From a virus (taxonomy: Duplodnaviria; Caudoviricetes), in IMG/VR virus record IMGVR_UViG_3300022198_005692, positions 1-56,102 of that record: DNA of 56,102 nt. One strand, written 5' to 3'. Of the stretch, positions 8,101-36,243 are shown piece by piece; positions within the stretch are counted from its first letter, which is position 1; each line of letters opens with the position of its first letter. Made by a program: the position numbers and the translations under genes. The notes beneath the pieces were generated by a model. That model ran no database searches and was not told the DNA's origin. It saw only the letters and a list, made by a program, of their open reading frames with translations.

Positions 8101-8668
8101 AGCAGCATCTCAATTAAATCCGTTTGCGGACGGGTCTGAAATCCCTGCTCCTCCAGCGCAGATCGTGACCCCATTTGGTCATGATAAATCAGTATCTGCA
8201 GCTGATCCCGGCCTTAATGGGATTTGTTATCCACCATATAATACCCAAGACATTCAACTACTGCCAGTAGCAAAAATTACCGAGGATATTAACTCGGCAG
8301 CAGAAGGACAATTTGATGTTTATTGGGGGTCTACTGACATCGATAAAATAGACAATCTTGGTGGTAAATATCTTAAGGTTAATAAAAAGCTGATCTTTGA
8401 CTTTGATACAAGGGAGATTACTAACATCCTTGTTTCTTTGACTCCAACGCAAAAACCTGACTTTACTGTTAGTTCTACGACCTACAACGCGAAGTTATTG
8501 GTTGAGATTCCGGCAGTTATTCCGCAGGATGCGGATAATAATTACCTGTATAAGGATGCTCTTACTTATACAGATAATCAACCTGCAAAATCTAATATTT
8601 TCTTGTTCTTGGATAAAGGAACTAGTAATATTAGCCTTCTAACCAAGAACAGCCCTACCTGGACTTAA
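5171..8668 (+). CDS. Large virion structural / tail fibre-associated protein
   Basis: 1165 aa, beta-rich, rich in S/T/N/D; N-terminal GLVRDLALSDIEDPSQALSEVL motif related to the N-termini of the 583-aa and 1245-aa proteins. Confidence 0.55.
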   Translation: MARYSETGRVKVSTKLPPLNQLKIPLETEVKYRGLVRDLALSDIEDPSQALSEVLLDIQDPAEQQTEGKFLFPDLEVLDGIINYGLKNEDLAILNNSSLNLETESGNLTPLVNPRQRITDRIKQLEFFAGRGTVFQGQGTSMFKYVVPLDETDNGTETGKLYSHTNPPPFYTHDLNKDENDSTDLVENGPDFIPSTPTEIKNSHRVGYIKDGEFVPDIEKEWWWAGAYKRDYRGREEYSGTNAFTNPSFPVVRDGNISFSYSLPRAVPNPYNWGLKMDFWMKRASSNDVFGKFLLQVSGHIRIDYFEITGYDSTTGAIEGSWKTAIDTTDPNTYYSQPTKEVSSDDPLGYRTYYIQGGPSNETLAQETTTSTPITQRTAANGASWDYANTTFNDLEGVTRRSFNQYVPVVIRYWFGQEDPADYDALVADKGEANITAQDRAKLSPGLTPGFEIDFILAAEENAKWNDYKAIVKIETSNNGETWQASNSVDLTANFNSTVEVLAYSIVTSPDLTNIYGDDWISSQGYLNGSINQTNGNLTIPDLGITTKPSIYVALTNRVVNAAPVNYSSDELWQDYMFHPNLQGTYSNRNDMLEGVGTNYSEPDPKKIQFENNYEAYKIIYGELPPVNFYDKSRYDGALDNSLTTQSSDRDYDYSHNKLLFIGRQKKDDQIKLTQTDEVRTDGDNYTFFTITENAAGLGGSVLIYGTPANNYGIITSSATTGTVGKALHMADNVSTFDDDTIQLYSTSADYVTANSNAAQGFSVQFKYVNGTVSGNKHLIPVDPGTNKVIADSNFGAGGTSAPNIDNNQMFLPGLIKGGTEYYFYDLVGVTRPAEEVELTISSDGDPAVVSITDSTFFGGVVGDSDDYLGTRIEIAGTAYYVTAYDPANTKVTIDHGTADPTTLAGNKQCKIFYNFLSFSNLPSVVIDSSQAEISNPITNTNLVDLIYVYSSGYQFRKIDSGAGLGIADSLYIKGNAAASQLNPFADGSEIPAPPAQIVTPFGHDKSVSAADPGLNGICYPPYNTQDIQLLPVAKITEDINSAAEGQFDVYWGSTDIDKIDNLGGKYLKVNKKLIFDFDTREITNILVSLTPTQKPDFTVSSTTYNAKLLVEIPAVIPQDADNNYLYKDALTYTDNQPAKSNIFLFLDKGTSNISLLTKNSPTWT

Positions 8669-10416
8669 GCAACTTGGAAGAGAGGAACTGAATATACTCT
8701 CTTCCCATCAACTGAGTTAGGCATCTCGGTGATTGTAAGAGCGGAATTCTTATGGAAATAGAATGCTCCGTTCTCTCCTGCTGGGAGTGGAGAATCTGGT
8801 ACAGAGATTCTTTGGGCATATTCAGCAATAGTTGTGTCGTAAGCGTACCAAGATTGACTAGATGAATCATATGCCTCTGCGCTGAGAGTGCCTAAAGGCA
8901 GTGAGTTTCTATTTGAACTTGCAGATCCATTGACTGTGGGGTTTTGAAGTTTTGAAGAAACTGCGCTATAAAATGGCTTATCTTTTGTTGAATAAGCACG
9001 TTTATAAACATCACCCACTTTAATGTATAGACCGGGTACAGTAAGTTTTTTAGTACCACTCTGGACAACAAATTCTGGGATAAGACTATTATCCCTTACT
9101 TGATCCCCACTGAGACCCTCTTGGGCAATTTTAGCAAGTAGGCCATCTTGATCTCTAATTACTACTCTTTGCCAAATTGCTACGTCTTTACCTTCGAAAC
9201 CATTATAGGCATATCCAAGTTTATTAGTCTCATCATCAACTAATTGTGGTTTTTTAGTATTTTGAATCGTTGTTCTGATTGATTCTAAATTTCTTGCTAC
9301 TGCATTTCCTAGGGAAGTAATATTAGAACTGATTGATCCACTTGCAAAGAACGATACTTCGCCATATCCTTCCAAATATACTCTAGAAGAAGCAAACTTA
9401 AACTGATTAAAATTATCTACCCTGATAAAATCTTCTCGTCTGATATCAATGTCTTGAACCTCCAATGTTTCTGTATCTTTGTCTAAGAAAATATACTTAT
9501 CATTTTTTCTATCAAATAAGAAAAATCCATCAGAGTCAGCACTAACCACATCGTAGTAGTATTCCCTTGTCCTGATTATAGGAGTCTGGAAGATGAAGGC
9601 AGTACCTCCTTGTCTTTGAATTCTTACCTCACTAATTGAGGCAGTGCTCGTATTGGTAAGAGTAGAATTGTTTTTATCAACTGGATAGGTAGAAGTAGTC
9701 TCTCTAATTTTTAATTTTTCAAAAATACCGTATCCAGTACCTGGATTTGTTATAACTATGTCAATAAGAATAAATCTTCTTGTATTAGAATCCTTATAAT
9801 TTTCACCTGTTGCGTGGGTTTTATCAGTGAAAGTCTCTTCTTTAAATGTCAGAGTTGCTCTAGCACTAGTCCGTCCACTTATCATCCCTTCTAAAACGAC
9901 ATCTTTTAAGACTACTACATTATCGGTTGTATCTTCAAAGTCATTATCATCATCCAAAATTGTAAATAAACTAGAGACTTTCTTTTGGAAATAAAATCCT
10001 CTTCCCCCATAAACCAACTCTATATCTGGAATTGATCCGTTGTTTGAGTAGATAGGAGAATAGAAAGAATCTTTCGTACTTGATGCAGTTACAGAAAAGT
10101 TTTTAAAGTATATCCTGTTACTATTTGTAAAAGTAAAAGTTTTAGTTAGGAATCTGGTTCTATCATATTGAACATCTTCAGTGCCTTTTCTCGCTGTAAT
10201 TTTTTCAGATTTCAAACCATAAATCTGAGTATTTACAGGGAACTCCGCGTCTGGATCAGGCTCTTTAGGACCAGAAATTACGGTAGATAAAATAGCTGAC
10301 GATAAAGAAAAAATTTCGATATCATTCTCTATTCCTGGAGCATATAATTTCTGCAGAGCCGTCTTTAGGTTTAAGTCGGTTTCTGAAAGGTTTTTAAATC
10401 GAGTTAATCCACTCAT
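8665..10416 (-). CDS. Virion structural / fibre-associated protein
   Basis: 583 aa; N-terminal KNLSETDLNLKTALQKL motif; ITNPGTGY motif. Confidence 0.5.
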   Translation of the reverse strand: MSGLTRFKNLSETDLNLKTALQKLYAPGIENDIEIFSLSSAILSTVISGPKEPDPDAEFPVNTQIYGLKSEKITARKGTEDVQYDRTRFLTKTFTFTNSNRIYFKNFSVTASSTKDSFYSPIYSNNGSIPDIELVYGGRGFYFQKKVSSLFTILDDDNDFEDTTDNVVVLKDVVLEGMISGRTSARATLTFKEETFTDKTHATGENYKDSNTRRFILIDIVITNPGTGYGIFEKLKIRETTSTYPVDKNNSTLTNTSTASISEVRIQRQGGTAFIFQTPIIRTREYYYDVVSADSDGFFLFDRKNDKYIFLDKDTETLEVQDIDIRREDFIRVDNFNQFKFASSRVYLEGYGEVSFFASGSISSNITSLGNAVARNLESIRTTIQNTKKPQLVDDETNKLGYAYNGFEGKDVAIWQRVVIRDQDGLLAKIAQEGLSGDQVRDNSLIPEFVVQSGTKKLTVPGLYIKVGDVYKRAYSTKDKPFYSAVSSKLQNPTVNGSASSNRNSLPLGTLSAEAYDSSSQSWYAYDTTIAEYAQRISVPDSPLPAGENGAFYFHKNSALTITEMPNSVDGKRVYSVPLFQVA

Positions 10417-21849: not shown

Positions 21850-24183
21850 TTACTCAGATACATATACATTGCCATCGGCAATGAAATAATTGAACTTAAC
21901 TACCCCGAGTGTGCCACCAACAATCCTATAACTGTTATCAGCGGAGGTAAATTTATCGCTTACTCCTTGAGGGGTGTTAATGATAATAGACCCGTCCTCT
22001 AGATTTACTGCCTGGACAGTGATAGGAACACCATCAGGCCAGTTTTGGAGAGTTTTTGATTCTCCAATACCCGCGGTCTGAATACCATCATTAAGATTCC
22101 CACCTGTTGACAAATAGTTAATGTTTAAGATGTCAGCAGAGTTTCTAAAAGTCACTCTTAATGTGTTGGAAGTTTCGAACTTAATTCGATCAATCTGGAA
22201 TTTTCCAATGGCTACAGATGCTGTGATTACATAACTATATCCATAAGAAGGGCTAGCAGCATTGGGATTTAAAAGATTAAGCGTAGAAGTTCCGATAATC
22301 TTTCTGCCCCTATTAGAGGTTTCAACATCTTGGCTCTCAGTTACTGTTGTGGTTGGAAGAGTGATAGCAAAAATTCCAGCCTCAAGTTGCTCATTAGTTT
22401 CTAAAACTTGGAGGTAACCAACAGCAGCTCCGCCTCTTTGATAGTTTGAATTAAGACTATAAATCGGGGCATTAATAGAGCCTTTAGAAATGGTCATAGG
22501 AAGTCCACCATCCGTCACAGTGAAGTAAGTCGTGGTTAAAGGAATTCCTTTTTTAACATCGATGGACACTCTGCTATACTCGTTGTTGTATAGATCTACT
22601 GACTTAATTACACTGCCATTTTCATTATACGCCAGGTTGTTTTGAGCGCTCCAACTCTCAGAAGAGTTTAACAGAATTCCGGTTTGACCACAGCTATTTA
22701 CGATGTTATTGTTAATAACTGACCCTTCAATTCCAATACCACTAATAGGCCCTGTGGTATTTTCGAATAGATTCCCCTGTACTACTGCTCTAGATACTTC
22801 TCTAAGTCTGAGTGGGGAGATATTTAACTCGTAAGGCTTTGAAAGTTCATATACTCTGTTGTTTGTTATATTTAGTCTACTCGATTCTATTGCAGTTAGA
22901 GCAGAACCGGCTCCGTTATAGAATGAGCAGTTTTCAATTCTTACCGAATCAGCTCTTTCTATATAGATCGTATCATTATTCTTATCAGAGATACCATAGA
23001 AGTCTCCTGTAGGAGATACGGTGGTAAACACACTAAACTTATTCCCATCAAAGGCAAGATTTTTAACAGTAATCATGCCAATAGCATCATCAACAGTTCT
23101 TCCTCTAATATCTAATAATCCATAATTACCAACTGCGTTTACGTGGCTAGGCGTTCTTCTAATGACTGTAGAATCTCCTGCTCCGCGTAGTGTAATACCA
23201 GAGTAATAAGAGGCATCATCAGTATCATATAGTGACACGTTACCCATGTGGTATGTGCCGGAAGGGATAAAGATTTCTTTAATAGGACCTTTCGCTGCGG
23301 CATCTAAAGCTTTTTTAAGAGCAGTCGTACTATTAAAGACAAATCTTACAGAAGAACCGACAAGATCGGTAGAGAATACCTGCGGCGTAGCGCTAATATC
23401 CTTTAGTTCAATAGTCCCAGAATTCACATAAACATTTGTAATTTTAAGGGTTCTTTTTTCTAGGATGGTGGTAGCATTGATTGATGATGTGCTATAGGAT
23501 AGAATACCTTGGAGGAAAGAAGGAATGGTGTTAGTTGACTGGAGAGTTTCTCTATCCCACGAAGGAACCTGAGACAGTCCTCTATCGTTGAATACAACGC
23601 TCGTATCCGAGCCAAAAATACTATTACCTGGAGCCCCTAGGAACTTAATCGGCTCACTTCCCCACTTTCTAAAGATTAATGGGATAATTTGTGAACTCTT
23701 TCTAGAGAAGAGTAATTGTACGTAACTTTTATCATCAAAGAGCAAGTCTGGATCTTTTAAGAATTTAAAAGTTGAGGTTGTACTAACTTGATAAGGGCTG
23801 AATTTGCCAGTAAAAGGATCATACCCGTAAATATAGTAGGTAACTTTTTCTGCAGACGCGTAATTAGACGCATCAATTCCAGAACCCACTAATTTAGTCT
23901 GTGCATTAGAAATAAAGTTATTAAATGCAGAACCAGGAGAATTTGAACTTGAAGTAAAGAATACTTCAATCTCATTACCTTCCTTGAAAAACTCTAGATT
24001 AGAGTAAAAATTAGGAATCTCTGAAATATCTAATATACTACCATTAGATCTTAGATCGCTAACTACTCCGGTGAAATACCCATCAAACCCAATGGCCCCA
24101 AAGGACCTAACATTAATAAATGAGTTGGTGTCAGCATCAATCTGAACATCCCCAGCTCCAAAACCAGAACCAATGTATCTCAT
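21850..24183 (-). CDS. Tailspike-like protein with a right-handed beta-helix (pectate-lyase-like)
   Basis: INVRSFGAIG, EIFIPSGTY, ITLRGAG and LAFDGNK motifs followed by Asn-ladder repeats (IENCSF, ITNNRV, VQGNLF, INNNIV). Confidence 0.75.
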   Translation of the reverse strand: MRYIGSGFGAGDVQIDADTNSFINVRSFGAIGFDGYFTGVVSDLRSNGSILDISEIPNFYSNLEFFKEGNEIEVFFTSSSNSPGSAFNNFISNAQTKLVGSGIDASNYASAEKVTYYIYGYDPFTGKFSPYQVSTTSTFKFLKDPDLLFDDKSYVQLLFSRKSSQIIPLIFRKWGSEPIKFLGAPGNSIFGSDTSVVFNDRGLSQVPSWDRETLQSTNTIPSFLQGILSYSTSSINATTILEKRTLKITNVYVNSGTIELKDISATPQVFSTDLVGSSVRFVFNSTTALKKALDAAAKGPIKEIFIPSGTYHMGNVSLYDTDDASYYSGITLRGAGDSTVIRRTPSHVNAVGNYGLLDIRGRTVDDAIGMITVKNLAFDGNKFSVFTTVSPTGDFYGISDKNNDTIYIERADSVRIENCSFYNGAGSALTAIESSRLNITNNRVYELSKPYELNISPLRLREVSRAVVQGNLFENTTGPISGIGIEGSVINNNIVNSCGQTGILLNSSESWSAQNNLAYNENGSVIKSVDLYNNEYSRVSIDVKKGIPLTTTYFTVTDGGLPMTISKGSINAPIYSLNSNYQRGGAAVGYLQVLETNEQLEAGIFAITLPTTTVTESQDVETSNRGRKIIGTSTLNLLNPNAASPSYGYSYVITASVAIGKFQIDRIKFETSNTLRVTFRNSADILNINYLSTGGNLNDGIQTAGIGESKTLQNWPDGVPITVQAVNLEDGSIIINTPQGVSDKFTSADNSYRIVGGTLGVVKFNYFIADGNVYVSE

Positions 24184-24201: not shown

Positions 24202-24576
24202 TCAAGCAGTGGCTGGGGTGTAGATTACGTAGGAAACTACAATATCTACATTATTTGCTCCTTCCGAATCCACCCAAGCAGAGATAGAATCTTGGTAGTT
24301 TAATACAAACTTGTTACCATTCATTACTTCAAATGAGTTTTTAGCGGGCACTGCTACATTAGAAAGAATCATAGCATTAGATCCCGCCTGTTTGTTTAAG
24401 CGAAGATTGATATCTCTAGTTCCTGCAGACTTATTTGCGACGATAATACTTAGGACTAGGGCATAGCCTCCTAAAGGAATGTCGGACGATGTAATTAGAG
24501 TTGTAGGGCTGCCTGAAGTTGCAGACACATTGGCAATAGCCTTAGACTCAAAAGAATTTGTTGGGAAAGTGGACAT
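24202..24576 (-). CDS. Small virion structural protein (beta-sandwich, fibre-associated)
   Basis: 124 aa resembling the common phage family with NxF at the start, a SIIVANKS strand and KFVL motif. Confidence 0.5.
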   Translation of the reverse strand: MSTFPTNSFESKAIANVSATSGSPTTLITSSDIPLGGYALVLSIIVANKSAGTRDINLRLNKQAGSNAMILSNVAVPAKNSFEVMNGNKFVLNYQDSISAWVDSEGANNVDIVVSYVIYTPATA

Positions 24577-24582: not shown

Positions 24583-24873
24583 TTAACCAAGAATCAGTGA
24601 TTGAGTTTGTGTGTAGGTAATTGCTTCCATGATTTCTTGTCTTCTAACCAAGGAATTAATCGTAGTAGGAGCAACATTCACCTCAACGATGGTCTTTGAG
24701 AGGAATAGCGGTGACGTATTCCCCAGACCATCTTGTAGTCTACCTTGAGCTAATTTAGCTGGACTGCTCAAGTCAAACGGAATACCATCCGTATCTGGTT
24801 GAGCATCAATATTAGAAAGTATAACGTTTGAAAACGTTTTTGAAATTTCGTAATCTTTGATGTTGGAGGCCAT
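24583..24873 (-). CDS. Small fibre adaptor-like protein
   Basis: 96 aa; RLQDGLGNTSPLFLS motif similar to VEDGSGVKSGLKLG in the 42662 gene; ends SLILG. Confidence 0.45.
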   Translation of the reverse strand: MASNIKDYEISKTFSNVILSNIDAQPDTDGIPFDLSSPAKLAQGRLQDGLGNTSPLFLSKTIVEVNVAPTTINSLVRRQEIMEAITYTQTQSLILG

Positions 24874-25793: not shown

Positions 25794-26027
25794 TCAAGCA
25801 GCCGGAACTTCTTCAACTACTTCCGTAGTAGCTTCAGTTACTGCTTCGGGCTCAGCGCCATTGCCGCCTGGCTCCTCCCCAAGCTGAAGTTGCATTGCCT
25901 CAATGGCTCCTTGGAGTTTGATTGCCAGTTCCTGCCGTTGGGCAAGGGCGGTACGGAGTTGGGTAATTTCTTTCTCGAGTTTCTCGAGTTGGGCGGTGAA
26001 ATTTTCCTTGAGTGTTGTAGGTTCCAT
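25794..26027 (-). CDS. Small coiled-coil protein, fibre-associated
   Basis: 77 aa heptad pattern with the KLQGAIEAM motif. Confidence 0.55.
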   Translation of the reverse strand: MEPTTLKENFTAQLEKLEKEITQLRTALAQRQELAIKLQGAIEAMQLQLGEEPGGNGAEPEAVTEATTEVVEEVPAA

Positions 26028-26101: not shown

Positions 26102-26407
26102 TTACCAAGGCAAACCAGAAGCACTCTTGGGAGCGAGTTGTTCGGCAATCTGATTGGCCAAAGTGGTCTCGGTGGAGGTGACTTGCTCCTCGCCGAGTTT
26201 GTCTTTGACCCACCCGATCACGATCTCTTCGGTGAGTTCGGAGTAAGGGATCACGGTATCGCCCTCGGCGGGGGCTTCGAGGCCTACGGAGCCGTATGCG
26301 CCGGCGGAGTAATCTCCGTCAGTAGCCGATACTGTCCAGTGAGCCGTGTATACAATGCCGTCGGCGGTATGACGCTCGAGATTGGCAATGGACCAAATAG
26401 TTTCCAT
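26102..26407 (-). CDS. Tail fibre-associated / assembly protein
   Basis: 101 aa WSIANLER...FIPY-like...GLPW family usually found directly after cyanophage fibre genes; GC-rich codon usage. Confidence 0.6.
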   Translation of the reverse strand: METIWSIANLERHTADGIVYTAHWTVSATDGDYSAGAYGSVGLEAPAEGDTVIPYSELTEEIVIGWVKDKLGEEQVTSTETTLANQIAEQLAPKSASGLPW

Positions 26408-26605: not shown

Positions 26606-28615
26606 TTACCAAGTAGACAGCGCAGAGCGCTTCCAAGTGTTGGTAGCAGTGCAAACGTAGACGTAGTTGGCGTCCCAGCAGATCTCACCGGCGGTTCCAG
26701 TGTCTGTCGCGGATGCAGGAGTTTTTGCACTTGCAATCCTAATACGATTGTCATTCACTTGAAGCAATGCGCCGCCACTATTGCTACCTGTGCCTATCAA
26801 TACTCGCCCAGACGTGTCAATTCTTAATTTCTCCGTACTATTTGTCCCAATAAACAGCGGGGCATTGGTAAGTGTGGATAAAAAGCCATAATTATTACCA
26901 GCGGCTAAGGCGATTTGCGTATTTGTCCCACCTCCTCCTCCTCCAAGATATTCTCCAAGAAATCCGCCGGTACTCGTTCCCGAGCCTGTGTCATTCGTTC
27001 GACTCCTAATCAGTTGTGAGCCAGTTTTTTGACAGTCAAGAAGATAACCAGGGCTTGTTGTTCCGATCCCGACGTTGCCTGCGTTGCTGATACGCATCCG
27101 CTCCGTCGGCGAAGCTGCCCCATCGGCGGTCGTGGAAAAGACAAGCCGCCCTGGCATGTCATTAGCGCCAGGGATGCCATCTACTTCGCCAAGGATTTCA
27201 GCGGCAGTTAAGAATTGAGTGCCATCATCGCCAGCAAAACGAATTTCGCCAAGTCTGTCGCTGCTTCCGACAAGTCCTCCAATAGATCCTGTAGTGCCAG
27301 ACCTTGAGTGAGCAAGGAACAACTTCCCGCTTACTCTCGCTCTACCTGAGCCGGTTGCATTTTGGAAAGAGCCAACAAAAAGATCCGCACAACCACCCGA
27401 TCCGGCGCTACTGGCACTGATTACTTTTGGAGTAATAAGGCTTTCTATTTGAAAACTACTAGACGTCCCCACTAGGAGGCGGCCGCCGGAGTCAATGCGA
27501 GCTGATTCATTAGATGACCCTTGCTTGAATATAATAGGGGCGGTTGATGTACCAGTCTCAAAAGTTAAGGGGTAGTTAGCGTAGAGGCGTAGTCCGATTG
27601 TTGCTCTAGTGTCGTAGTCAAGATCGAGCGAGCCATATACAGTAGAATCAGTATTGAATGTGAAGTCAATGGCGCCTCTTGTCCCCGTTACTCCTGACTT
27701 TAGTTTTAGAGTTGCATTATTGGCGTCTAAGATTGTATTACCACTAACTTCCAATTTTTCTGTTGGATTTGTGGTGCCGATGCCTACATTACCATCCGAA
27801 TTTATTGTGACAACATTGTTTACATTAGCTGATGTTGCTACTTCTTCAAATGTACCAGACGTTGCAGTTGAATACGTATCGAGTCTTATTTCACCACCAA
27901 CAATTCTTACTCTATCACCATTAGTTGTTTGTGTTGAATCATTTCCTTTGAATAATAAGAGTTCAGATCTTTCTGTAGTTCCCCAGATTCTTTCTCCGAT
28001 ATAAGTGTGATTATACCCACCTGGGTTATCTCCTGTAGTACCTCTAAATGCAATATAGTTTGGTCCTGCATTTTCACCACCGATATTTATATTTCCACGA
28101 ACATCTAGTTTCGCCAGAGGGTTTGTGGTTCCAATACCAACATTGCTACCAGTTACATTCAATCCATTGGTTAAAGTTATTAATCCAGTGCCGGTATCAG
28201 CGGCATCAGATCTTAAAAAACTACTACTATCAATACCATCCAGTAGATTAGAATCCGCTGCTTTAGCACTAATCCCTAGGAACCTGGCGTCGGATTCTGT
28301 CTCGGTGTAGTACCGCCCATCATGAGTATGGGAATCATTGGCAACTACAATGGCGTTATAGGTCCCACTAACATCCCCACCAAATGTTGTTGAAGTAGTT
28401 AAAGCGGTAGAAGCTGGTTGGTAATAAGAACCTTGTTGACCATCTAAAGTACTCGCGTTTGTTCCTATCTCTACAACCGATTCAGTACCATCATTTATAA
28501 GAGTATATAATTTTCCGTGGTAGGTATTGAGCGCTAATTCACCCAATGAGAGGTCACTTATCGCTGGTACTTTACCCTGAATAGCGGATCTTTTAATTCG
28601 TATTGTATTTGCCAT
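26606..28615 (-). CDS. Tail fibre protein (distal/tip)
   Basis: MANTIRIKRS...GELALN N-terminus, three NVGIGTT repeats, DMPGRLVFSTTADG and terminal GEICWDANYVYVCTATNTWKR. Confidence 0.8.
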   Translation of the reverse strand: MANTIRIKRSAIQGKVPAISDLSLGELALNTYHGKLYTLINDGTESVVEIGTNASTLDGQQGSYYQPASTALTTSTTFGGDVSGTYNAIVVANDSHTHDGRYYTETESDARFLGISAKAADSNLLDGIDSSSFLRSDAADTGTGLITLTNGLNVTGSNVGIGTTNPLAKLDVRGNINIGGENAGPNYIAFRGTTGDNPGGYNHTYIGERIWGTTERSELLLFKGNDSTQTTNGDRVRIVGGEIRLDTYSTATSGTFEEVATSANVNNVVTINSDGNVGIGTTNPTEKLEVSGNTILDANNATLKLKSGVTGTRGAIDFTFNTDSTVYGSLDLDYDTRATIGLRLYANYPLTFETGTSTAPIIFKQGSSNESARIDSGGRLLVGTSSSFQIESLITPKVISASSAGSGGCADLFVGSFQNATGSGRARVSGKLFLAHSRSGTTGSIGGLVGSSDRLGEIRFAGDDGTQFLTAAEILGEVDGIPGANDMPGRLVFSTTADGAASPTERMRISNAGNVGIGTTSPGYLLDCQKTGSQLIRSRTNDTGSGTSTGGFLGEYLGGGGGGTNTQIALAAGNNYGFLSTLTNAPLFIGTNSTEKLRIDTSGRVLIGTGSNSGGALLQVNDNRIRIASAKTPASATDTGTAGEICWDANYVYVCTATNTWKRSALSTW

Positions 28616-28631
28616 GTGGCGATTCCTAAAT

Positions 28632-28673
28632 TGCTATATAGCAGAATGTATATATCATGGTCTATATAGACCA
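28632..28673. promoter_or_regulatory. Cluster of TATATA-centred palindromes upstream of the fibre gene
   Basis: TGCTATATAGCA (28632-28643) and TGGTCTATATAGACCA (28658-28673) are perfect palindromes; a third, imperfect one lies between them. Confidence 0.45.
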
Positions 28674-28707
28674 GGTATCTATTAATTATTCAACTAATAA
28701 TAGCTAA

Positions 28708-30360
28708 TCAGAAAGTTCCGCCATCAAAAACAATATTATCAATCGTCCCGCCAGTAATGCTTACATTATTCGCATTTTGGGTGGAGATTGTACCAAGACC
28801 GAGAGTAGTACGACCGGCAGTAGCATCTGCGTCATCGATAAGACTCCGGCCGAATGATGTCAAAGTGGCTAATGCAGCGGTAGAGGCTCCGGTATAATAC
28901 GCGATTCTATCCGCTACTGGGGTAAGTCCACCGACGCTAGAGAGCGCATCAGAAAGTGCGAGAGTAGGATTACCAGCGACGCCATTTCCATTTGAAACAT
29001 TAATTCCACTTCCGCTAACTGCGATAGAACGAGCGGTGATGGTATCGGTTCCGGTCCTGGTAAAAAGGCCATTGGTTGCTAGGTTGTGGAGGGCTAGAGC
29101 CTGTCCTGTAAGACCCACACTATTAGCATCAACAGTAATACCTGTACCGGCTCCGACATCCAGAGTGTTTCCAGTTTTGGTAAGACCGGCTCCGGCAGTA
29201 ATTTGACCGGCACCACTAAATTGTGCGAATGATAGAGCAGTACCACTGGCCCCGCCAATAGTAATAGCATCGTTAGTTGTTAATACCCACCCCGAATCAG
29301 CATTAGTAGCACCCTCCGTAACAAATGTAAAGGCACCAGCAGTTACTTCAGTATCCGAATCAAAATCGGTGGCTCTATCCCATACACCATTTGCACCGGT
29401 CCCAAGAGTAGTAACCACCCAAATACCATTCTGGGCTCCAGCCGACTGATCTTTGAGAAGGATTCTATCTCCAGCTGCTAAGTTTACTCCATCTAAGGTA
29501 TTAGGCGCTGCTGTAATCTGTCCTCTACTACTTGTACCACCGGTAGCATTGTAAGTAATAGAAATATTGCCAGTCGAGGCGAGACGAACACTCTCTTTTA
29601 CATCAAGGCCACTGCGGGCTGCGTCGACATAAGCCTTGGTTGCCGCGTCTTGGGCATCTATCGGATCGGCAAGGTTGGTTATCTTCTGGTTATTAAGAGA
29701 AACAGCAGTTGTTGGGTTGGTTACCTGATCGAGCCTAGGCATCACATGAACGTGATCGGCTCTGGCATAACGTAGAGAAGTGCCGGTTGCTGCGGTACCT
29801 AGAGCATTAGGAGCAGTCGAAGAAGCCTGACCAATAACAAAGGCTGTTGTGGCGAGCTGAGTTGTATTGGTATCAGTGGAAGCCGTAGGTGCGGCGGGGG
29901 TCCCAGTGAAAGTTGGAGAATCTAAATTGGCTTTAGAGGTATCAGATGGGTGGACGTGATCAGCTCTAGCATAACGTAGAGAAGTGCCGGCAGCTTGAGT
30001 GCCATTCATCGTAATAGTAGAATTTATACTATTAGCTTGTCCTAGAACAAATGCTGTCGTGGCTACCTTAGTGGTATTATCATCTACGCTCGGAGTTGTA
30101 GCGCTAGCGCTACTTCCTAATACTATTGTACCGCTAAAGGTTTTATCTCCGGTAATTGTCTGAGTACCGGTTAGATTTATAAATGCACCAGGACCGGCTA
30201 TGGCAAGGATATTTGAGGCGGTTCCTCCGGCCCCTCCTGTACCCTCACCATAATACAGAATATCATCGACTTCATTAAAAGCTAATTCAGCATTAGCCAA
30301 AGACGACGGAGCTCCGGCATCACCGGATGATCTACGTTTGATTCTAATAGTATTAGCCAT
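28708..30360 (-). CDS. Tail fibre protein
   Basis: MANTIRIKRR...AELAFN N-terminus; duplicated ATTAFVxGQA...SLRYARADHVH repeat; DAATKAYVD and DRILLKDQ...NGIW motifs; ends DGGTF. Confidence 0.8.
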   Translation of the reverse strand: MANTIRIKRRSSGDAGAPSSLANAELAFNEVDDILYYGEGTGGAGGTASNILAIAGPGAFINLTGTQTITGDKTFSGTIVLGSSASATTPSVDDNTTKVATTAFVLGQANSINSTITMNGTQAAGTSLRYARADHVHPSDTSKANLDSPTFTGTPAAPTASTDTNTTQLATTAFVIGQASSTAPNALGTAATGTSLRYARADHVHVMPRLDQVTNPTTAVSLNNQKITNLADPIDAQDAATKAYVDAARSGLDVKESVRLASTGNISITYNATGGTSSRGQITAAPNTLDGVNLAAGDRILLKDQSAGAQNGIWVVTTLGTGANGVWDRATDFDSDTEVTAGAFTFVTEGATNADSGWVLTTNDAITIGGASGTALSFAQFSGAGQITAGAGLTKTGNTLDVGAGTGITVDANSVGLTGQALALHNLATNGLFTRTGTDTITARSIAVSGSGINVSNGNGVAGNPTLALSDALSSVGGLTPVADRIAYYTGASTAALATLTSFGRSLIDDADATAGRTTLGLGTISTQNANNVSITGGTIDNIVFDGGTF

Positions 30361-30417
30361 TTAAGAAGGAGGTAGTAAAAACTAAGAACCTATTTTATCT
30401 TTCTATCTTTCAACTAG

Positions 30418-31044
30418 TCAAAAATTGCCACCATCAGTTATGGTTATTAGGGTATTTATATCATTTACAACATATTTTTGTTCGGTTTCATTAAATACAA
30501 CAACACTTTGATTCACTCTATTTTCATCATTTACGTCTAATAAGTCCCCCAAAGATGGCTTATTTCCAATATGCCATACCTCATTTGAGTTTATACTCAA
30601 TGACTCCGCGTTTACCCCACCTTGTACTTCAACATCACCAATTACTTCTAAGACTAATAGATTATTAGTCTCTCCCTCGGTCCCTACTTGAACTTTTTTA
30701 AATTTTGATGGTATCTCAATCCACTCTGAGATGGAGCTGTCCCATGCCTTAAGCGAATAAAAACCGTCACCAGAACTACTATCTATCCAACACTCCCCAT
30801 TTGAAAGTTCTAGATAATATCCATTTTGTTCAGCATCGGCATTTGGAGCAGTAGGACCAAAATGAATTGGACCTATTTTCCTTATTTTTCTAGTCCCGTC
30901 TGGTTCTAAAGCCTTAAAATATAGTCCTGGATCTTCAGAATTATAATTAAGAGCTAGTTCTCCGTTATCTATATCATACAACTCAGGTCTTTTTGAAAGA
31001 ACAGAAGACCGCCTGAGTAAAATTTTATCTCTTAATTCGGCCAT
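30418..31044 (-). CDS. Short fibre / adaptor protein
   Basis: KILLRRS...GELALNY N-terminal domain; ends DGGNF. Confidence 0.65.
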   Translation of the reverse strand: MAELRDKILLRRSSVLSKRPELYDIDNGELALNYNSEDPGLYFKALEPDGTRKIRKIGPIHFGPTAPNADAEQNGYYLELSNGECWIDSSSGDGFYSLKAWDSSISEWIEIPSKFKKVQVGTEGETNNLLVLEVIGDVEVQGGVNAESLSINSNEVWHIGNKPSLGDLLDVNDENRVNQSVVVFNETEQKYVVNDINTLITITDGGNF

Positions 31045-31051
31045 GATTTAA

Positions 31052-31969
31052 TTAATACTCCAATGCATCAATAACATAATTCCTATCATCTCCTTGGACT
31101 ATATTATCAATAATTTCGGTTATATAGCCTTCCACATAATTTTTATTTACGGCGTCAAGTGAGTGTATTGGATCAGCGACACCAGATATCCTTCTTTCAT
31201 TTACTTCAAGTGCGGGTCTCCAAGACTCTATATTTTCTCCTAGTATCAGGTTGCCATAAAATTCCACCTGCCCGGAATTTCTTATTCTGCCAATAGAATT
31301 TGATTCCGAATCTATCCACTGTTGTACTACATTAATTTTATCAGATATAGAAGCCTTTACTGTGAGGGGAATAGCCTCATTTATACCGGGAGAGATGGTA
31401 TTTTCAATAGAAGATACCGGTTGTTTTTTTAAAAAATCTCCTCCTACGTCTATTTGAGATATTAAATTATCTACCTGAGCTTTTGTATAAGTTTGAGAGT
31501 TTGAATAATAATTCTGAGCTAAATAAGAAATAAATTCGCTATATGAATTAGATATTTTTTCATCTACTTCGAATTCTGATATAAATAGTGATATAGATTG
31601 ATTTACTTCTGTTCTTATGGAAGCGAGTAATTTATCTACCTCTTCCTCAGAATATACAAAAGATATATCAGCTTTTGTTTTTAAAAGTTTTTGAATCTCC
31701 GATTTATTATAATAATCTTCTTCACCGGAGATATTTAAAGAGGATCCTTCCGTAAATACATTCGGAGACGAAGAGAAGCTTTGATTTGTATTTAATAGCG
31801 CTTCACGAGAAGTAGGAAGAACTCTACTTGCCCCAGAATCAAAACAACTGGCCCTGGAACCCGAACTAAATACATTACTATTTGATTGATTAGATTGGGT
31901 CCCTTGAGTAGAGGTACTTAAACTTTTTATTGGAGTAGAAGATCCACCACCCCCAAACACTTTAGCCAT
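31052..31969 (-). CDS. Fibre-base / adaptor protein
   Basis: YxKxEV/ID coiled-coil repeats, ISGVADP...DAVNKNYV motif; ends IDALEY. Confidence 0.55.
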   Translation of the reverse strand: MAKVFGGGGSSTPIKSLSTSTQGTQSNQSNSNVFSSGSRASCFDSGASRVLPTSREALLNTNQSFSSSPNVFTEGSSLNISGEEDYYNKSEIQKLLKTKADISFVYSEEEVDKLLASIRTEVNQSISLFISEFEVDEKISNSYSEFISYLAQNYYSNSQTYTKAQVDNLISQIDVGGDFLKKQPVSSIENTISPGINEAIPLTVKASISDKINVVQQWIDSESNSIGRIRNSGQVEFYGNLILGENIESWRPALEVNERRISGVADPIHSLDAVNKNYVEGYITEIIDNIVQGDDRNYVIDALEY

Positions 31970-33538: not shown

Positions 33539-34300
33539 TTAAACAATGTTGTTCTTAACATTTTCAACTCTCCATCCACGATAATATTTTAAAGAACCAT
33601 TAGCAAGGCTATACATATGTCCAGAACTTAATCCCCGCTCTTTTGCAAATTTCTTAAGGCTTTTACATATATACTTATTACCATCGGGATCAATTACTTC
33701 CCATATATTACCAAAAATTTTGCATCTAGTATTACTAATACCTTCACAATGAGAGGGTTTATTTTTCATACCCTTCCTATGGCCGATCTTTCCCCACATA
33801 TGATGTTTTTCACCACTTGTTGATTTACTAATTTTTTTCTTCATACTCTCTGGCATTGCTTTCCCCTTAAGGGGATGCTGATTATTTTTATAATAATTTT
33901 TCACCTTCATAGCAATATCAGCTTTATATTCTGGATTAGACATCAAAGATTTTGTTCTATTAGAAGTAATTTTAGAGATTTCTTGCTTAAGCTCTTCGTA
34001 TAATTTTGATGAGATATTATGAATTGCATTAGAATCTTGACTAAAGCACATTCTCCACGCAGCATAAGCCATTTTAGTAGTCCTTTGATCTTTTTCCCCG
34101 TATCTTTTTAAAAATCCCTTCCATAAAAGCATGTGAGCAATATAATGCTCCCTCGCCGTAAGACATACTACCTTGGAATTCTTTCCAAAGATAGACTTTG
34201 GGAATATATGATGTTTTTCAAAATAAGGATCTTTCCCTTTCTTCCAATTTCTATCTGATGCCTTACGCATTAAAGTGCAATAATGTTTTAAATAATTCAT
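33539..34300 (-). CDS. Free-standing HNH homing endonuclease with NUMOD3-like repeats
   Basis: EKHHIFPKS...LTAREHYIAHMLL and basic NUMOD-like tail. The true start is probably the ATG at 34300 (TAATG overlap with the portal stop), not 34363. Confidence 0.85.
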   Translation of the reverse strand: MNYLKHYCTLMRKASDRNWKKGKDPYFEKHHIFPKSIFGKNSKVVCLTAREHYIAHMLLWKGFLKRYGEKDQRTTKMAYAAWRMCFSQDSNAIHNISSKLYEELKQEISKITSNRTKSLMSNPEYKADIAMKVKNYYKNNQHPLKGKAMPESMKKKISKSTSGEKHHMWGKIGHRKGMKNKPSHCEGISNTRCKIFGNIWEVIDPDGNKYICKSLKKFAKERGLSSGHMYSLANGSLKYYRGWRVENVKNNIV

Positions 34301-36243
34301 TACATAAAGTACGGGGCAAAATACTTCATATACCCTGCCTTTTGGCAATCTACCACCACACATTCTTTATACACCACTTTGCGATTTAACCTATAAATTT
34401 TCTTATAGAGGTTAATAAGTCGCTGAACGTCACACTCACTCATTCGATCCACTCTCACCTGACTCTCAATACCTCCTAACTCCATCTCAGATGAGGAACT
34501 AACCATAGAATCTTCTGGGGAGATATACGGAGCCTTTTTAATCTCTTCGATAAGCCTCCGTACTCCGTGAGCAATTTCACCTGGTGAGGTATACTCATCG
34601 ATATGAAGTCGGGAATTAGAAGCATCTGCCTCAGAATCACCAGAAGAGATAATCCGCTGGAACCCAACATCATCAAGCGAGCCATCAAACTTAGAGGCAA
34701 TGATTTTGGCAACCTTGTCTTTCTGGGTCTTATCATCCAGGTCGTTATCCTCGTCAAACTCAGAAAAATCAAACAACTCAAGATGGGCACCTGGGTCGCC
34801 TCCAAAAGCGCCCATAGAGCCGTTTTCCACGTCCTGTGGGTTTTTATCCTCGGACATTGGCGCCTGGCCCTCAAGCCCGCCCGGGGGTGCTCCGCCGGGA
34901 GGCATGCCGCCCATCATCTGGCTCATATCCACCTTGCCAAGAGACGGAATCTCAAGTTTATCTCTTACCCAATCAAGGTCCTTGACTTCGTAGCCAATGG
35001 CCTGGAGCTGGGTAAGCATTTGAACAATCTTAACGGGGTCTTCGCGTTGCTCTAGATCGTCGAAGTTCCTACGGAGACGAGGAATCGGTGCCCCTGGATA
35101 GTTAAGTTCAACAATCCAGCGAATAAGAGTTGCATTAAGCGTCTCATCCAACTCTTCCGAAAACGCCTTAGCTTTACGCATACGCACCGAGTCGGAAATT
35201 TGATCACGGGCATAAGATCCAACATTGCCTGTCTCTTGGCCAACAGTATTCTCTCCATTGATCACAAAACTGATTTGTTGATCCACATACTCAATCAGTT
35301 TTTCATATACCTCTGAGCGACCTTGACTCTCAAGCCAGCTAATATCCATCTCATCAGGGACAACAATAGCTGTCTCTTGACCAAGGCGTTGGAGAGCGGT
35401 GAAAAGGGCGTTTACCTCATCTTCGGGCGTGCCAAGTGAGAACTTACCGACCGCAGTGGGAGTGGTATGCTTATCCGCATACTGCAGCCAGAAAGACATC
35501 AGAGTCCGTCTGAATTCCACGAGGCTATAGAGCTGGCGGCCGAGGCCAGTGCCATACGGATCCATGAAGTTGCTATAGCACCAGTGTCTATGGATGATCA
35601 TAGAACGGAGGGGAAGGGCAATACCTTCTACCGAGCTCTCCACAGTGAGTAGGCGTGGGGAGATTGTACCGTCCTCATTAAGGACAAAAAGAAACCTTCT
35701 CGGATCGCGGATTTTAATTTCGGATGGGACAATGTAATTTCCCTGTCTCATCCAGCATATCTCACCGATGCTAATTCCAAGGATAAGAGATTCACATAAC
35801 CCTCTGATAAATGTATCAAATGCGGAGTTAGAACTCACCAACATCTCTTTACCATATGCCTGGCGGGTATTCGTGCCCATACGGTAGAGTACTTGACGGA
35901 CAAACTCTGCCACCTCCTCGTCACGATCGGACGGACTTGCTGGATCTACCTCCCATTTACGTTGGATAATCTCTCCTGTTAATTTCTCCCATGCAGATAT
36001 AATTTGGCTGTCATTAAACAGCCGCATGTACTTCTCGATTGCTCGAGGTCCGCCACCACCTTCCTCAATAAGGATATCATCACGACGAGGAAGGATCGTG
36101 CCACCTGTGATGTACCCATTTCCCGCAAAAGCATAAGGATCGGCCTTATACCCCGCAAGACCGCCCTGACCTACTCCTAACGAGAAGTATCTGTCATAAT
36201 ATCCCGTTTTGGGTTTTGTTATTGAAGGGCGGTCGTCGGCCAT
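34300..36243 (-). CDS. Portal protein (Mu gp29 / DUF935-like) with C-terminal extension
   Basis: W(EV)DPAS, PYGTGL, FWLQYADKH, QQISFVINGE, GSYA and TLIRWIVELNYPG..PRL match DUF935-type portals. Confidence 0.85.
   Translation of the reverse strand: MADDRPSITKPKTGYYDRYFSLGVGQGGLAGYKADPYAFAGNGYITGGTILPRRDDILIEEGGGGPRAIEKYMRLFNDSQIISAWEKLTGEIIQRKWEVDPASPSDRDEEVAEFVRQVLYRMGTNTRQAYGKEMLVSSNSAFDTFIRGLCESLILGISIGEICWMRQGNYIVPSEIKIRDPRRFLFVLNEDGTISPRLLTVESSVEGIALPLRSMIIHRHWCYSNFMDPYGTGLGRQLYSLVEFRRTLMSFWLQYADKHTTPTAVGKFSLGTPEDEVNALFTALQRLGQETAIVVPDEMDISWLESQGRSEVYEKLIEYVDQQISFVINGENTVGQETGNVGSYARDQISDSVRMRKAKAFSEELDETLNATLIRWIVELNYPGAPIPRLRRNFDDLEQREDPVKIVQMLTQLQAIGYEVKDLDWVRDKLEIPSLGKVDMSQMMGGMPPGGAPPGGLEGQAPMSEDKNPQDVENGSMGAFGGDPGAHLELFDFSEFDEDNDLDDKTQKDKVAKIIASKFDGSLDDVGFQRIISSGDSEADASNSRLHIDEYTSPGEIAHGVRRLIEEIKKAPYISPEDSMVSSSSEMELGGIESQVRVDRMSECDVQRLINLYKKIYRLNRKVVYKECVVVDCQKAGYMKYFAPYFM

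What the first reader, a model, noticed from the sequence alone, without database searches (positions are those of the whole stretch)
26606..31969. Candidate head-to-tail fibre chain: C-terminal DGGxF tails paired with the next gene's MANTIRIKR/GELALN N-terminal domain
Seen: four consecutive co-oriented genes. The 305-aa protein lacks the N-domain and ends VIDALEY. The 208-aa protein starts KILLRRS..GELALN and ends ITDGGNF. The 550-aa protein starts MANTIRIKRR..AELAFN and ends VFDGGTF. The 669-aa protein starts MANTIRIKRS..GELALN and ends in a tip domain with no tail motif. Every tail-bearing gene is followed by a gene with the N-domain; the first gene has only a tail and the last has only the N-domain. 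Inference: a plug-and-socket system in which gene order encodes assembly order of an extensible fibre, allowing segments to be inserted or swapped. The 115-aa gene at 3929 (GELFVN plus end motif) could be an alternative minimal cap.
Basis: partly seen in the sequence, partly recalled or inferred. Interest (0 to 1): 0.8.

Follow-up and report, generated by a model that had tools for sequence, protein, structure and literature searches.

The report
Serial plug-socket joints in phage fibre
Four neighbouring genes of an uncultured S-TIM5-like cyanophage encode pieces of one long fibre that very probably clip together end to end through the same kind of joint that links gp36 to gp37 in the phage T4 long tail fibre, which gives a sequence rule for reading fibre architecture from genomes.

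Summary
On the minus strand, four consecutive genes (305, 208, 550 and 669 aa) carry the reported tails and N-domains. The one error is the 115-aa gene at 3929, which has no tail motif and no N-domain.

The N-domain is homologous to the N-terminus of T4 gp37, the region that gp36 binds. T4 gp36, encoded 8 nt upstream, ends in DFGYY (PMC3004832).

The pairing generalises:
- In 80 IMG/VR loci plus the window, 115 of 128 N-domain genes follow a gene ending D[GA]xx[FY].
- In scans by tail motif alone, 78 of 78 TDGGNF-stop genes and 47 of 75 IDGGTF-stop genes are followed by an N-domain gene.
- Codons and spacers at the junction vary freely, so selection acts on the protein.

A 3+3 complex model of the 550 tail with the 669 N-domain scored 0.87, against 0.02 for the best control.

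Tails and sockets fall into matched classes. The 208-aa protein is a fusion of a socket module and a plug module that are separate genes in a relative.

Verdict: a serial, modular variant of the T4 gp36-gp37 joint. Binding is modelled, not shown. The scan reached the same reading before on other DNA.

The parts
31052..31969 (-). 305-aa root segment of the chain. It has no N-domain. It is a homologue of cyanophage S-TIM5 gp133, which is annotated as a virion structural protein. It ends in the class-0 plug ..VIDALEY.
   Evidence: It is 36% identical over its full length to S-TIM5 gp133, which ends ..IVDALEY. Homologues in L089-L095 and L097 end D[AC]L.Y and are followed by an N-domain gene in 8 of 8 loci that have downstream sequence.
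31055..31069 (-). Class-0 plug: the last five codons (DALEY) of the 305-aa gene.
30418..31044 (-). 208-aa adaptor. It combines a class-0 socket (N-domain, about residues 5-60, window 31032-30865) with an A-type module ending in the class-I plug ITDGGNF.
   Evidence: The N-domain profile hits it. Residues 1-114 are 69% identical to the N-terminus of the L089 305-aa fibre. Residues 111-208 are 61% identical to the separate L089 101-aa protein that ends TDGGNF. PHROG 356 'minor tail protein' matches residues 12-103.
30421..30435 (-). Class-I plug: the last five codons (DGGNF) of the 208-aa gene.
   Evidence: In the scan by the TDGGNF-TAA pattern, 78 of 78 assessable matches are followed by an N-domain gene, and 77 of 80 of these are of the NAELA[FY] type.
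28708..30360 (-). 550-aa middle segment. It has a class-I socket (MANTIRIKRR..NAELAFNE, residues 1-55, window 30360-30196), a fibre shaft, and the class-II plug VFDGGTF.
   Evidence: (tail-fibre PHROGs). It is 66% identical to the L089 524-aa protein.
28711..28725 (-). Class-II plug: the last five codons (DGGTF) of the 550-aa gene.
   Evidence: In the complex model, residues 541-550 (76 and 80-90 of the 90-residue piece) make the contacts. D, G and G are invariant in 12 of 12 aligned relatives.
26606..28615 (-). 669-aa distal segment. It has a class-II socket (MANTIRIKRS..GELALN, residues 1-55, window 28615-28451), then shaft and tip, and no plug.
   Evidence: (tail-fibre PHROGs 9942 and 18345). 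The N-domain profile hits T4 gp37 residues 6-45. tblastn with its first 60 residues hits the gp37 of Yersinia phage fHe-Yen9-01.

Best explanation
The four genes encode successive trimeric segments of one virion fibre of an S-TIM5-like cyanomyovirus. The segments are joined head to tail by three joints of the type that links gp36 to gp37 in the T4 long tail fibre.

In each joint, the last roughly ten residues of the proximal protein end in D-G-G-x-F/Y (D-A-L-x-Y at the first joint). In the model they lie as a strand alongside the first roughly ten residues (MANTIRIKRS) of the next protein's roughly 50-residue N-terminal trimer domain.

Gene order 305 > 208 > 550 > 669 is the proximal-to-distal order.

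The joints come in matched classes: DALxY with a KILLRRS-type socket, TDGGNF with a RIKRR..NAELAFNE socket, and xDGG(T/S)(F/Y) with a KRS..GELA(L/I)N socket. These classes would fix the order of assembly and let segments be inserted or exchanged as cassettes.

Shown here: the sequence features, their homology to the T4 gp37 N-terminus, the genomic pairing in both directions, selection at the protein level, and the fusion origin of the 208-aa adaptor.

Inferred: physical binding (model only), trimer stoichiometry, orthogonality of the classes, and where on the virion the 305-aa root sits.
For: 1. Homology to T4.
- The profile of the N-domain (alignment A1) matches T4 gp37 residues 6-45 at 32 bits, conditional E 8e-12.
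- It also matches the gp37 of Yersinia phage fHe-Yen9-01 (tblastn E 6e-5).
- T4 gp36 lies 8 nt upstream and ends DFGYY. The fHe-Yen9-01 gp36 ends DFGTY.
- 118 of 120 listed gp36 relatives end D.G.[FY].
- The review PMC3004832 (passages read) states that trimeric gp36 binds the N-terminal region of gp37.

2. Forward enrichment.
- There are 138 N-domain ORFs in 80 IMG/VR loci plus the window, and 128 have a co-oriented upstream gene.
- Of those 128, 115 follow a gene ending D[GA]..[FY] and 109 follow one ending DGG.[FY].
- After collapsing to 84 junction clusters, 75 of 84 have the motif.
- Of 121 motif-ending genes with a co-oriented downstream gene, 115 are followed by an N-domain gene.

3. 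Reverse scans chosen by tail alone.
- TDGGNF-TAA: 78 of 78 assessable matches.
- IDGGTF-TAA: 47 of 75 by profile, plus 7 that look Mtd_N-like by eye. One of those 7 was confirmed as Pfam PF18454 at 31.8 bits.

4. Selection acts on the protein.
- All synonymous codons and all three stop codons are used at the conserved positions.
- Spacers range from -1 to 129 nt across 69 junctions.

5. Complex model.
- Input was the 550 C-terminal 90 residues in 3 copies plus the 669 N-terminal 90 residues in 3 copies.
- ipSAE was 0.87 in each of 3 runs, with a best control of 0.02. Partner pLDDT was 96 and the runs agreed in 100% of their contacts.
- That mark was reached by 58 of 80 solved complexes and 2 of 110 mismatched pairs. 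These counts hold only roughly here, because my own alignments were used.
- Contacts: tail residues 76 and 80-90 with N-domain residues 1-11, 15, 17-18, 21, 23 and 28.
- No solved chain matches the N-domain profile, so a pass from memory of a like complex is unlikely.

6. Matched classes.
- TDGGNF is followed by R at N-domain position 10 in 60 of 64 unique cases. IDGGTF is followed by R there in 1 of 38. Fisher p = 4e-22, not corrected for relatedness.
- In the model, tail residue -2 touches N-domain residues 8-10.

7. Modularity.
- The 208-aa protein is a socket module joined to a plug module, and these are two separate genes in L089.
- L091 has the same four-gene chain.
- The TDGGNF plug sits on at least three unrelated N-terminal modules.
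- The N-domain heads proteins of 74 to 1604 aa, and 3,932 representative proteins match at E <= 1e-3.
Against: - Binding is only modelled; no experiment was done. The model's calibration was for pairs of single chains, not 3+3 assemblies.
- Adjacency is not universal. 13 of 128 N-domain genes lack the motif upstream.
- The N-domain fibre genes of P-SSM2 and S-SKS1 follow an HNH endonuclease gene, and RsoM2USA genes 416 and 418 have no plug upstream.
- 28 of 75 IDGGTF-ending genes have no profile-detectable N-domain downstream. About 21 of those are followed by something else, such as small coiled-coil proteins.
- The plug carriers are not gp36 homologues. There is no PF03903 hit, and BLASTP of the 208-aa protein against gp36 gives E 0.077.
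- The class statistics are not corrected for shared ancestry of three-gene cassettes.
- The fold search with the N-domain monomer gave only weak matches, all with Z below 5.
Confidence: 0.8

Rival explanations
1. The 208, 550 and 669 aa proteins are independent, alternative fibres. Each would attach through the shared N-domain to the same virion site, as with shared anchor domains of multi-tailspike phages. The C-terminal DGGxF would be an unrelated feature such as a trimer cap or a chaperone signal. Adjacency would then reflect only inheritance of a fibre gene cassette.
For: Some N-domain genes have no plug-bearing gene upstream: P-SSM2, S-SKS1 and RsoM2USA, and 13 of 128. Some IDGGTF-ending genes have no socket gene downstream (28 of 75 by profile). 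The N-domain heads very diverse proteins, as a shared anchor would.
Against: The pairing holds in both directions across mosaic contexts. Tail classes match socket classes. Proteins with the class-II socket almost never carry a tail themselves (1 of 150), as expected of distal ends. In T4 the homologous N-terminus is the gp36-binding end, not a baseplate anchor. The model places the tail on the N-terminal strand with high confidence.
Confidence: 0.1
2. The conserved stop-start junction is a DNA or RNA feature. It would be either a homologous-recombination hotspot for swapping fibre cassettes or a translational-coupling signal, rather than a protein-protein joint.
For: Fibre genes are mosaic, and conserved motifs have been proposed to mediate shuffling (PMC3157838, passages read). 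Many junctions are tight: gaps of -1 to 3 nt in 15 of 69.
Against: Synonymous positions are randomised: four Gly codons, six Arg codons and all three stop codons are used. Spacer length varies from -1 to 129 nt. Conservation extends over about 50 residues of protein.
Confidence: 0.03
3. The joints are real but the assembly is branched or competitive rather than a single linear chain. For example, one plug would accept several sockets, so that 550 and 669 are alternative distal parts on the same stem.
For: Vibrio phage 1.293.O has two plug-bearing paralogues (g20 and g21) ahead of two socket genes. Cross-pairs between classes occur at low frequency: 3 N-with-S, 1 S-with-R, 2 A-with-R, 1 D-with-R and 1 K-with-R among 84 clusters. 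Cross-specificity was not modelled.
Against: The class association is strong: 60 of 64 against 1 of 38. The covarying residues are in contact in the model. The order A, then class I, then class II is conserved.
Confidence: 0.07

Closest known systems
Phage T4 long tail fibre, distal half-fibre joint gp36-gp37 (genes 34-35-36-37)
   Same: - The N-terminal domain of the distal protein is homologous.
- The proximal protein is encoded immediately upstream and ends D-x-G-x-aromatic.
- Gene order equals assembly order.
- Trimeric gp36 binds the N-terminal region of gp37 (PMC3004832).
   Different: - T4 has one such joint. The window has three in a row, with three motif classes.
- The plug carriers here are not PF03903 gp36 homologues.
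- The tail is DGGxF or DALxY rather than DFGYY.
- No gp35-like hinge protein was identified.
- The host phage is S-TIM5-like, not a T4-type phage.
Cyanophage S-TIM5 gp133-gp132 (annotated virion structural proteins)
   Same: gp133 is the homologue of the 305-aa protein and ends IVDALEY. gp132 follows after 3 nt and starts with the class-0 N-domain. The portal, 142-aa and 357-aa-like genes upstream are syntenic.
   Different: In S-TIM5 the socket heads a 674-aa terminal protein, giving one joint. In the window it heads a 208-aa adaptor that carries a further plug, which extends the chain by two more segments.
Pfam Mtd_N (PF18454), the N-terminal domain of Bordetella phage BPP-1 Mtd and of HylP-type fibres
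   Same: It has the same position (extreme N-terminus of fibre proteins) and a similar pattern (basic strand ... GE ... T/N ... G). A gene after an IDGGTF-ending gene in L245 is a true PF18454 member at 31.8 bits.
   Different: The window's three N-domains and T4 gp37 do not reach any Pfam family even at E <= 10. The structural match to Mtd (1yu0_A residues 5-49) is weak: Z 2.6, rmsd 3.0, 42 residues aligned.
Multi-polypeptide side fibres proposed for podoviruses ICP2 and SIO1 (Hardies et al. 2016, PMC4819975)
   Same: Fibre domains are spread over three adjacently encoded polypeptides, and the authors compare this to the T-even long tail fibre (passages read).
   Different: In the passages I read, that paper names no terminal plug motif, no socket domain and no specificity classes.

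Membership tests
T4-type gp36-gp37 fibre joint | The distal protein begins with the gp37-type N-terminal domain | tested here: met
   The profile of window-type N-domains hits T4 gp37 residues 6-45 at 32 bits, conditional E 8e-12, and fHe-Yen9-01 gp37 at E 1.2e-12. tblastn with the 669 N-terminus hits fHe-Yen9-01 gp37 at E 6e-5.
T4-type gp36-gp37 fibre joint | The proximal protein is encoded directly upstream and ends D-x-G-x-aromatic | tested here: met
   The window has DGGNF and DGGTF. T4 has DFGYY and fHe-Yen9-01 has DFGTY. 118 of 120 gp36 relatives end D.G.[FY]. The first joint (DALEY) departs from this pattern.
T4-type gp36-gp37 fibre joint | The proximal protein belongs to Pfam PF03903 (Phage_T4_gp36) | tested here: not met
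   There is no PF03903 hit for the 305, 208 or 550 aa proteins at E <= 0.1. BLASTP of the 208-aa protein against T4 gp36 gives a best E of 0.077.
T4-type gp36-gp37 fibre joint | The two trimers physically bind through these ends | not testable with these tools
   Model only: ipSAE 0.87 against a best control of 0.02, partner pLDDT 96, and 100% contact agreement between runs.
T4-type gp36-gp37 fibre joint | A gp35-like hinge and a gp34-like proximal half-fibre are present | not tested
   No dedicated search was made. The only related result is partial PHROG hits of the 669-aa protein to families named proximal or distal subunit.
Pfam Mtd_N (PF18454) | Profile match above the gathering score | tested here: not met
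   There is no hit for the first 100 residues of the 669, 550 or 208 aa proteins, or for T4 gp37, at E <= 10. A positive control, the gene after an IDGGTF tail in L245, scores 31.8 against a cutoff of 26.3.
Pfam Mtd_N (PF18454) | Same fold as the Mtd N-terminal domain | tested here: inconclusive
   VIA-align gives 1yu0_A residues 5-49 at Z 2.6, rmsd 3.0, 42 aligned, and 2c3f_A residues 7-69 at Z 2.5. All matches are below Z 5. The best Foldseek E is 0.21, to the collagen XVIII trimerization domain.
S-TIM5-like (Aurunvirus) gp133/gp132 virion protein pair | Homology of the root protein and of the following socket, with conserved synteny after the portal and the 142-aa gene | tested here: met
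   The 305-aa protein against gp133 gives 36% identity over the full length, E 2e-46. Residues 5-87 of the 208-aa protein against gp132 give 48% identity, E 3e-19. Synteny is shown. The tail sheath is 57% identical to that of S-TIM5.

The most novel reading that the evidence does not exclude
A portable plug-and-socket code operates across thousands of phage fibre proteins. A C-terminal pentapeptide strand (D-G-G-x-F/Y and variants) docks on a gp37-type or Mtd_N-type N-terminal trimer domain. There are at least three mutually orthogonal specificity classes, set by a few contacting residues such as tail position -2 against socket position 10. If so, the order, length and branching of multi-segment fibres can be read directly from genome sequence, and segments can evolve by cassette insertion, as in the 208-aa fusion seen here.
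Probability: 0.45. Interest if true: 0.78.

Novelty: new variant of a known kind. Interest (0 to 1): 0.62.

Why it matters
Tail fibres decide which hosts a phage can infect, yet multi-protein fibres are almost never annotated as such. Most of the proteins here are labelled 'hypothetical', 'head decoration' or 'collagen-like' in public records.

A sequence rule would let fibre architecture be inferred for uncultured phages: a gene ending D-G-G-x-F/Y followed by a gene starting with this N-domain marks a joint. The rule would also explain how long or composite fibres arise by inserting segments.

It gives a testable atomic hypothesis for the T4 gp36-gp37 joint. No solved chain in the PDB copy searched matched the N-domain profile.

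The N-domain occurs at the N-terminus of at least 3,932 representative proteins, so the rule would apply widely.

Tried and rejected
- The 115-aa gene at 3929 as a 'minimal cap' is rejected. It has no tail motif, scores 1.4 bits against the N-domain profile, has no family hit, and lies on the other strand 22 kb away.
- A DNA-level explanation (recombination hotspot or coupling signal) is rejected as the main cause, because synonymous sites and spacers are randomised.
- Filing the plug carriers as gp36 family members is rejected.
- The search for related loci with the 208-aa protein found no relatives. Relatives were found later through the 305-aa protein.
- megablast of the region against named phages gave no match.
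- The profile search of solved structures with the N-domain gave only chance-level hits to designed propeller proteins.
- Fold searches with the N-domain monomer model (mean pLDDT 74.6; residues 1-50 at about 88-95) gave nothing above Z 4.7 or below E 0.21. The top rows were collagen XV/XVIII trimerization domains. This is a weak lead that the domain is a trimerization unit, nothing more.
- The protein-atlas look-up for the 305-aa protein gave only leads below 0.9: HylP-like, tail fibre and gp36-like clusters.

Literature searches:
- 'C-terminus of gp36' together with gp36 and gp37 returned 0 papers.
- The motif strings DGGTF, DGGNF, DFGYY, MANTIRIKR and DGGSF returned 20 papers, of which 15 were listed and none concerned phage.
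- General searches and passages of PMC3004832, PMC3157838, PMC12143355, PMC4819975 and two 2026 bioRxiv preprints describe the gp36-gp37 joint only coarsely.
- The library lacks most subscription journals, and supplements were closed, so prior description elsewhere is not excluded.
- The original S-TIM5 paper was not seen. That its virion proteins were identified by proteomics is my recollection. Here I rely only on the GenBank product names.

Not done:
- The second structure job.
- The sequencing-run tools.

Full report
**Observation.** The window is a 56-kb IMG/VR viral contig, estimated about 35% complete. It belongs to a myovirus related to cyanophage S-TIM5: the tail sheath is 57% identical over 96% of its length. 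The portal and a weak tail-tube match lie just upstream of the finding.

On the minus strand there are four consecutive genes, separated by 7, 57 and 92 nt:

| Coordinates | Length | Start | End |
|---|---|---|---|
| 31969-31052 | 305 aa | no N-domain | VIDALEY |
| 31044-30418 | 208 aa | ..KILLRRS..GELALN | ITDGGNF |
| 30360-28708 | 550 aa | MANTIRIKRR..AELAFN | VFDGGTF |
| 28615-26606 | 669 aa | MANTIRIKRS..GELALN | ..ALSTW |

Of the window's 244 ORFs of 40 aa or more, only these three consecutive genes end D[GA]..[FY]. PHROG hits mark the 208, 550 and 669 aa proteins as tail or tail-fibre proteins.

The 115-aa gene at 3929 is not part of this. It has no end motif, scores 1.4 bits against the N-domain profile, and has no family hits.

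**What the N-domain is.** A search restricted to residues 1-60 of the 669-aa protein found 26 proteins among 44 candidates. They share the first roughly 55 residues but have quite different bodies.

A full HMMER pass over 1.84 billion representatives found 3,932 proteins at E <= 1e-3 and 490 at E <= 1e-10. In all 150 listed, the match starts within the first five residues, and the proteins range from 74 to 1604 aa.

A profile of 16 such N-termini (A1) matches T4 gp37 residues 6-45 at 32 bits, conditional E 8e-12. It matches no other T4 long-tail-fibre protein. tblastn with the window's domain also reaches the gp37 of Yersinia phage fHe-Yen9-01.

Neither Pfam-A nor NCBIfam has a model covering this domain in T4 gp37 or in the window. 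No solved chain matched the profile.

According to the review by Leiman et al. (PMC3004832, passages read), trimeric gp36 binds the N-terminal region of gp37. T4 gene 36 ends 8 nt before gene 37, and gp36 ends DFGYY. 118 of 120 listed gp36 relatives end D.G.[FY]. The window's tail-plus-N-domain pair therefore has the same anatomy as the T4 gp36-gp37 joint.

**Is the pairing more than chance?**

- *Forward test.* At least 403 IMG/VR stretches encode the N-domain, and the best 80 loci were fetched. With the window they hold 138 N-domain ORFs, of which 128 have a co-oriented upstream gene. Of those 128, 115 follow a gene ending D[GA]..[FY] and 109 follow one ending DGG.[FY].
- *After collapsing near-duplicates.* The junctions reduce to 84 clusters, and 75 of the 84 keep the motif.
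- *Within the same loci.* 129 of 1271 crude genes end in the motif, and 121 of those have a co-oriented downstream gene. For 115 of the 121, that gene carries the N-domain.
All 78 with at least 200 nt downstream are followed, at -1 to 44 nt, by an N-domain gene. The pattern for IDGGTF-TAA gave 82 matches, 75 of them assessable, and 47 are followed by a profile-detectable N-domain.
- *The 28 misses in the IDGGTF scan.* Seven start with an Mtd_N-like sequence by eye, and one of these was confirmed as Pfam PF18454. The rest are followed by other genes, several of them small coiled-coil proteins.
- *Cultured phages.* S-CBS2 has gp50 (..SGGSF), then gp51 (N-domain..IDGGTF), then gp52 (N-domain). 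Vibrio phage 1.293.O has g21, then g22, then g23. Exceptions are P-SSM2, S-SKS1 and RsoM2USA, whose N-domain genes have no plug gene upstream.

**Protein-level or DNA-level conservation.** At 69 deduplicated junctions the conserved residues use all synonymous codons: both Asp codons, four Gly codons and six Arg codons. All three stop codons occur, and the spacers run from -1 to 129 nt. Conservation is therefore selected at the protein level.

**Model of the joint.** The last 90 residues of the 550-aa protein (alignment A2, 12 rows) and the first 90 residues of the 669-aa protein (A3, 20 rows) were folded together, three copies each.

- ipSAE was 0.87 in each of three runs.
- The best of three controls scored 0.02.
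- Partner pLDDT was 96, and the runs agreed in 100% of their contacts.
- That mark was reached by 58 of 80 solved complexes and 2 of 110 mismatched pairs. These counts hold only roughly here, because my own alignments were used and the job is a 3+3 assembly.

The contacts are tail residues 76 and 80-90 (T..IDNIVFDGGTF) with N-domain residues 1-11, 15, 17-18, 21, 23 and 28. They run in a rising register (83-90 against 3-10), as in a parallel strand pairing. This supports binding but does not show it.

The N-domain monomer model is confident for residues 1-50 and contains four short strands. Fold searches gave only weak matches: collagen XV/XVIII trimerization domains at Z 4.7, Mtd 1yu0 residues 5-49 at Z 2.6, and HylP1 at Z 2.5.

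**Matched classes.**

- Tails ending (T/S)DGGNF precede N-domains of the form MANTxRIKRR..NAELA(F/Y)NE.
- Tails ending xDGG(T/S)(F/Y) precede MANTIKxKRS..GELA(L/I)NT.
- In the 84 clusters the counts (tail position -2, socket position 10) are N/R 24, T/S 28 and S/S 9. The cross-pairs are N/S 3, S/R 1, A/R 2, D/R 1 and K/R 1. The other 15 clusters carry a different residue at tail position -2.
- In the reverse scans, R at position 10 follows TDGGNF in 60 of 64 unique cases and follows IDGGTF in 1 of 38. Fisher p = 4e-22, not corrected for relatedness. The NAELA(F/Y) signature occurs in 77 of 80 against 0 of 51.
- In the model, tail residue -2 touches N-domain residues 8-10, so the covarying positions are neighbours.
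- Proteins with the class-II socket are nearly always terminal: 1 of 150 ends in a plug.
- The window obeys the rule. 208 (DGGNF) precedes 550 (RIKRR..AELAFN, ending DGGTF), which precedes 669 (KRS..GELALN).

**The first joint and the origin of the chain.**

- Homologues of the 305-aa protein in eight IMG/VR loci with downstream sequence end D[AC]L.Y. All eight are followed by a gene with a divergent N-domain of the form RDK..LRRS..KRP..GELA(L/V)N.
- The same holds in L036.
- It also holds in cultured cyanophage S-TIM5. There gp133 (ending ..IVDALEY) is followed by gp132, and both are annotated as virion structural proteins.
- In S-TIM5 and most relatives, that socket heads a long terminal protein. 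In the window and in L091 it heads a short adaptor that ends TDGGNF.
- BLASTP shows the window's 208-aa protein is a fusion. Residues 1-114 are 69% identical to the N-terminus of the L089 305-aa protein. Residues 111-208 are 61% identical to the separate L089 101-aa protein that ends TDGGNF.
- The TDGGNF plug is found on at least three unrelated N-terminal modules in other phages.

**Comparison with what is known, and novelty.** Multi-protein fibres, and the fact that gp36 binds the gp37 N-terminus, are textbook knowledge. Three-polypeptide fibres 'reminiscent of T-even long tail fibres' were proposed for podoviruses ICP2 and SIO1 (PMC4819975).

I did not find the following in the library searched (and the passages cited above):
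- the terminal pentapeptide plug;
- its pairing with the gp37-type N-domain as a general sequence rule;
- its serial use;
- its specificity classes.

The library is incomplete and supplements were closed.

Earlier agents of this scan reached the same T4 gp36-gp37 reading on other genomes. I saw those notes only after deriving the reading here, and they are not independent evidence.

I file this as a new variant of a known kind, with the joint itself about 80% likely to be real.

**Limits.**
- Nothing here measures binding.
- My gene calls in the loci are crude (longest non-overlapping ORFs).
- The loci are related to each other to an unknown degree.
- Cross-class specificity and the virion location of the 305-aa root were not tested.

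Noticed in passing
window 24583-24873 (-) and 24202-24576 (-): This is a second recurring gene pair. A protein ending ..LILG / ..ILALG / ..SIALG is followed within a few nt by a 110-127 aa protein starting MA..N.F(K/Q)T. The pair occurs in the window (96 aa then 124 aa), in P-SSM2 genes 293/294, S-SKS1 12/11 and S-TIM5 gp131/gp130, and in L036, L089 and L092-L095. It may be another joint type or a fibre-plus-tip (or chaperone) pair.
   Followed up: partly
window 33539-34363 (-): A 274-aa homing/HNH endonuclease gene (PHROG 655, E 1e-33) sits between the portal gene and the 142-aa tail-tube-like gene. In S-TIM5 and in L089-L097 the portal gene is followed directly by the 142-aa gene, so this looks like a mobile insertion.
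   Followed up: partly
window 21850-24183 (-): A 777-aa protein with a right-handed beta-helix (Pfam PF13229, E 1.2e-7; PHROG tail spike) lies downstream of the fibre chain. It is followed by very large structural genes of 1026, 1506 and 1245 aa. The phage therefore carries a tailspike-like protein besides the segmented fibre.
   Followed up: no
L221, L229, L280 and L077, downstream of IDGGTF/LDGGTF-ending genes: Several plug-ending fibre genes are followed not by a socket gene but by a small coiled-coil protein of 60-83 aa (pattern ..VN.LV..YN....L..QN.LLEA.L..L). Its role is unknown. These cases account for some of the misses in the reverse scan.
   Followed up: no
L084 (Vibrio phage 1.293.O), locus 5037-8768: Two paralogous small proteins both end in a plug: g20 ends ..LIDGGDY and g21 ends ..TVDGGSF. 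They precede two socket genes, g22 (which itself ends ..IIDGGSF) and g23 (a pectin-lyase-fold tip). This suggests a branched or two-fibre arrangement.
   Followed up: no
L100-L178, the genes ending TDGGNF: The TDGGNF plug sits on at least three unrelated N-terminal modules. One is a 112-aa type starting MATNYP.SLD..NP. One is an Mtd_N-like type with ..RQRIQLRRDTAANW... One is a type with a collagen-like GP.GP stretch. This suggests that different virion anchors feed the same joint.
   Followed up: partly
window 26102-26407 (-) and 25794-26027 (-): Two small conserved genes of unknown function lie directly after the distal fibre gene: one of 101 aa (PHROG 7802, E 1e-36) and one of 77 aa (PHROG 580, E 4e-15). 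They are candidates for fibre assembly factors.
   Followed up: no
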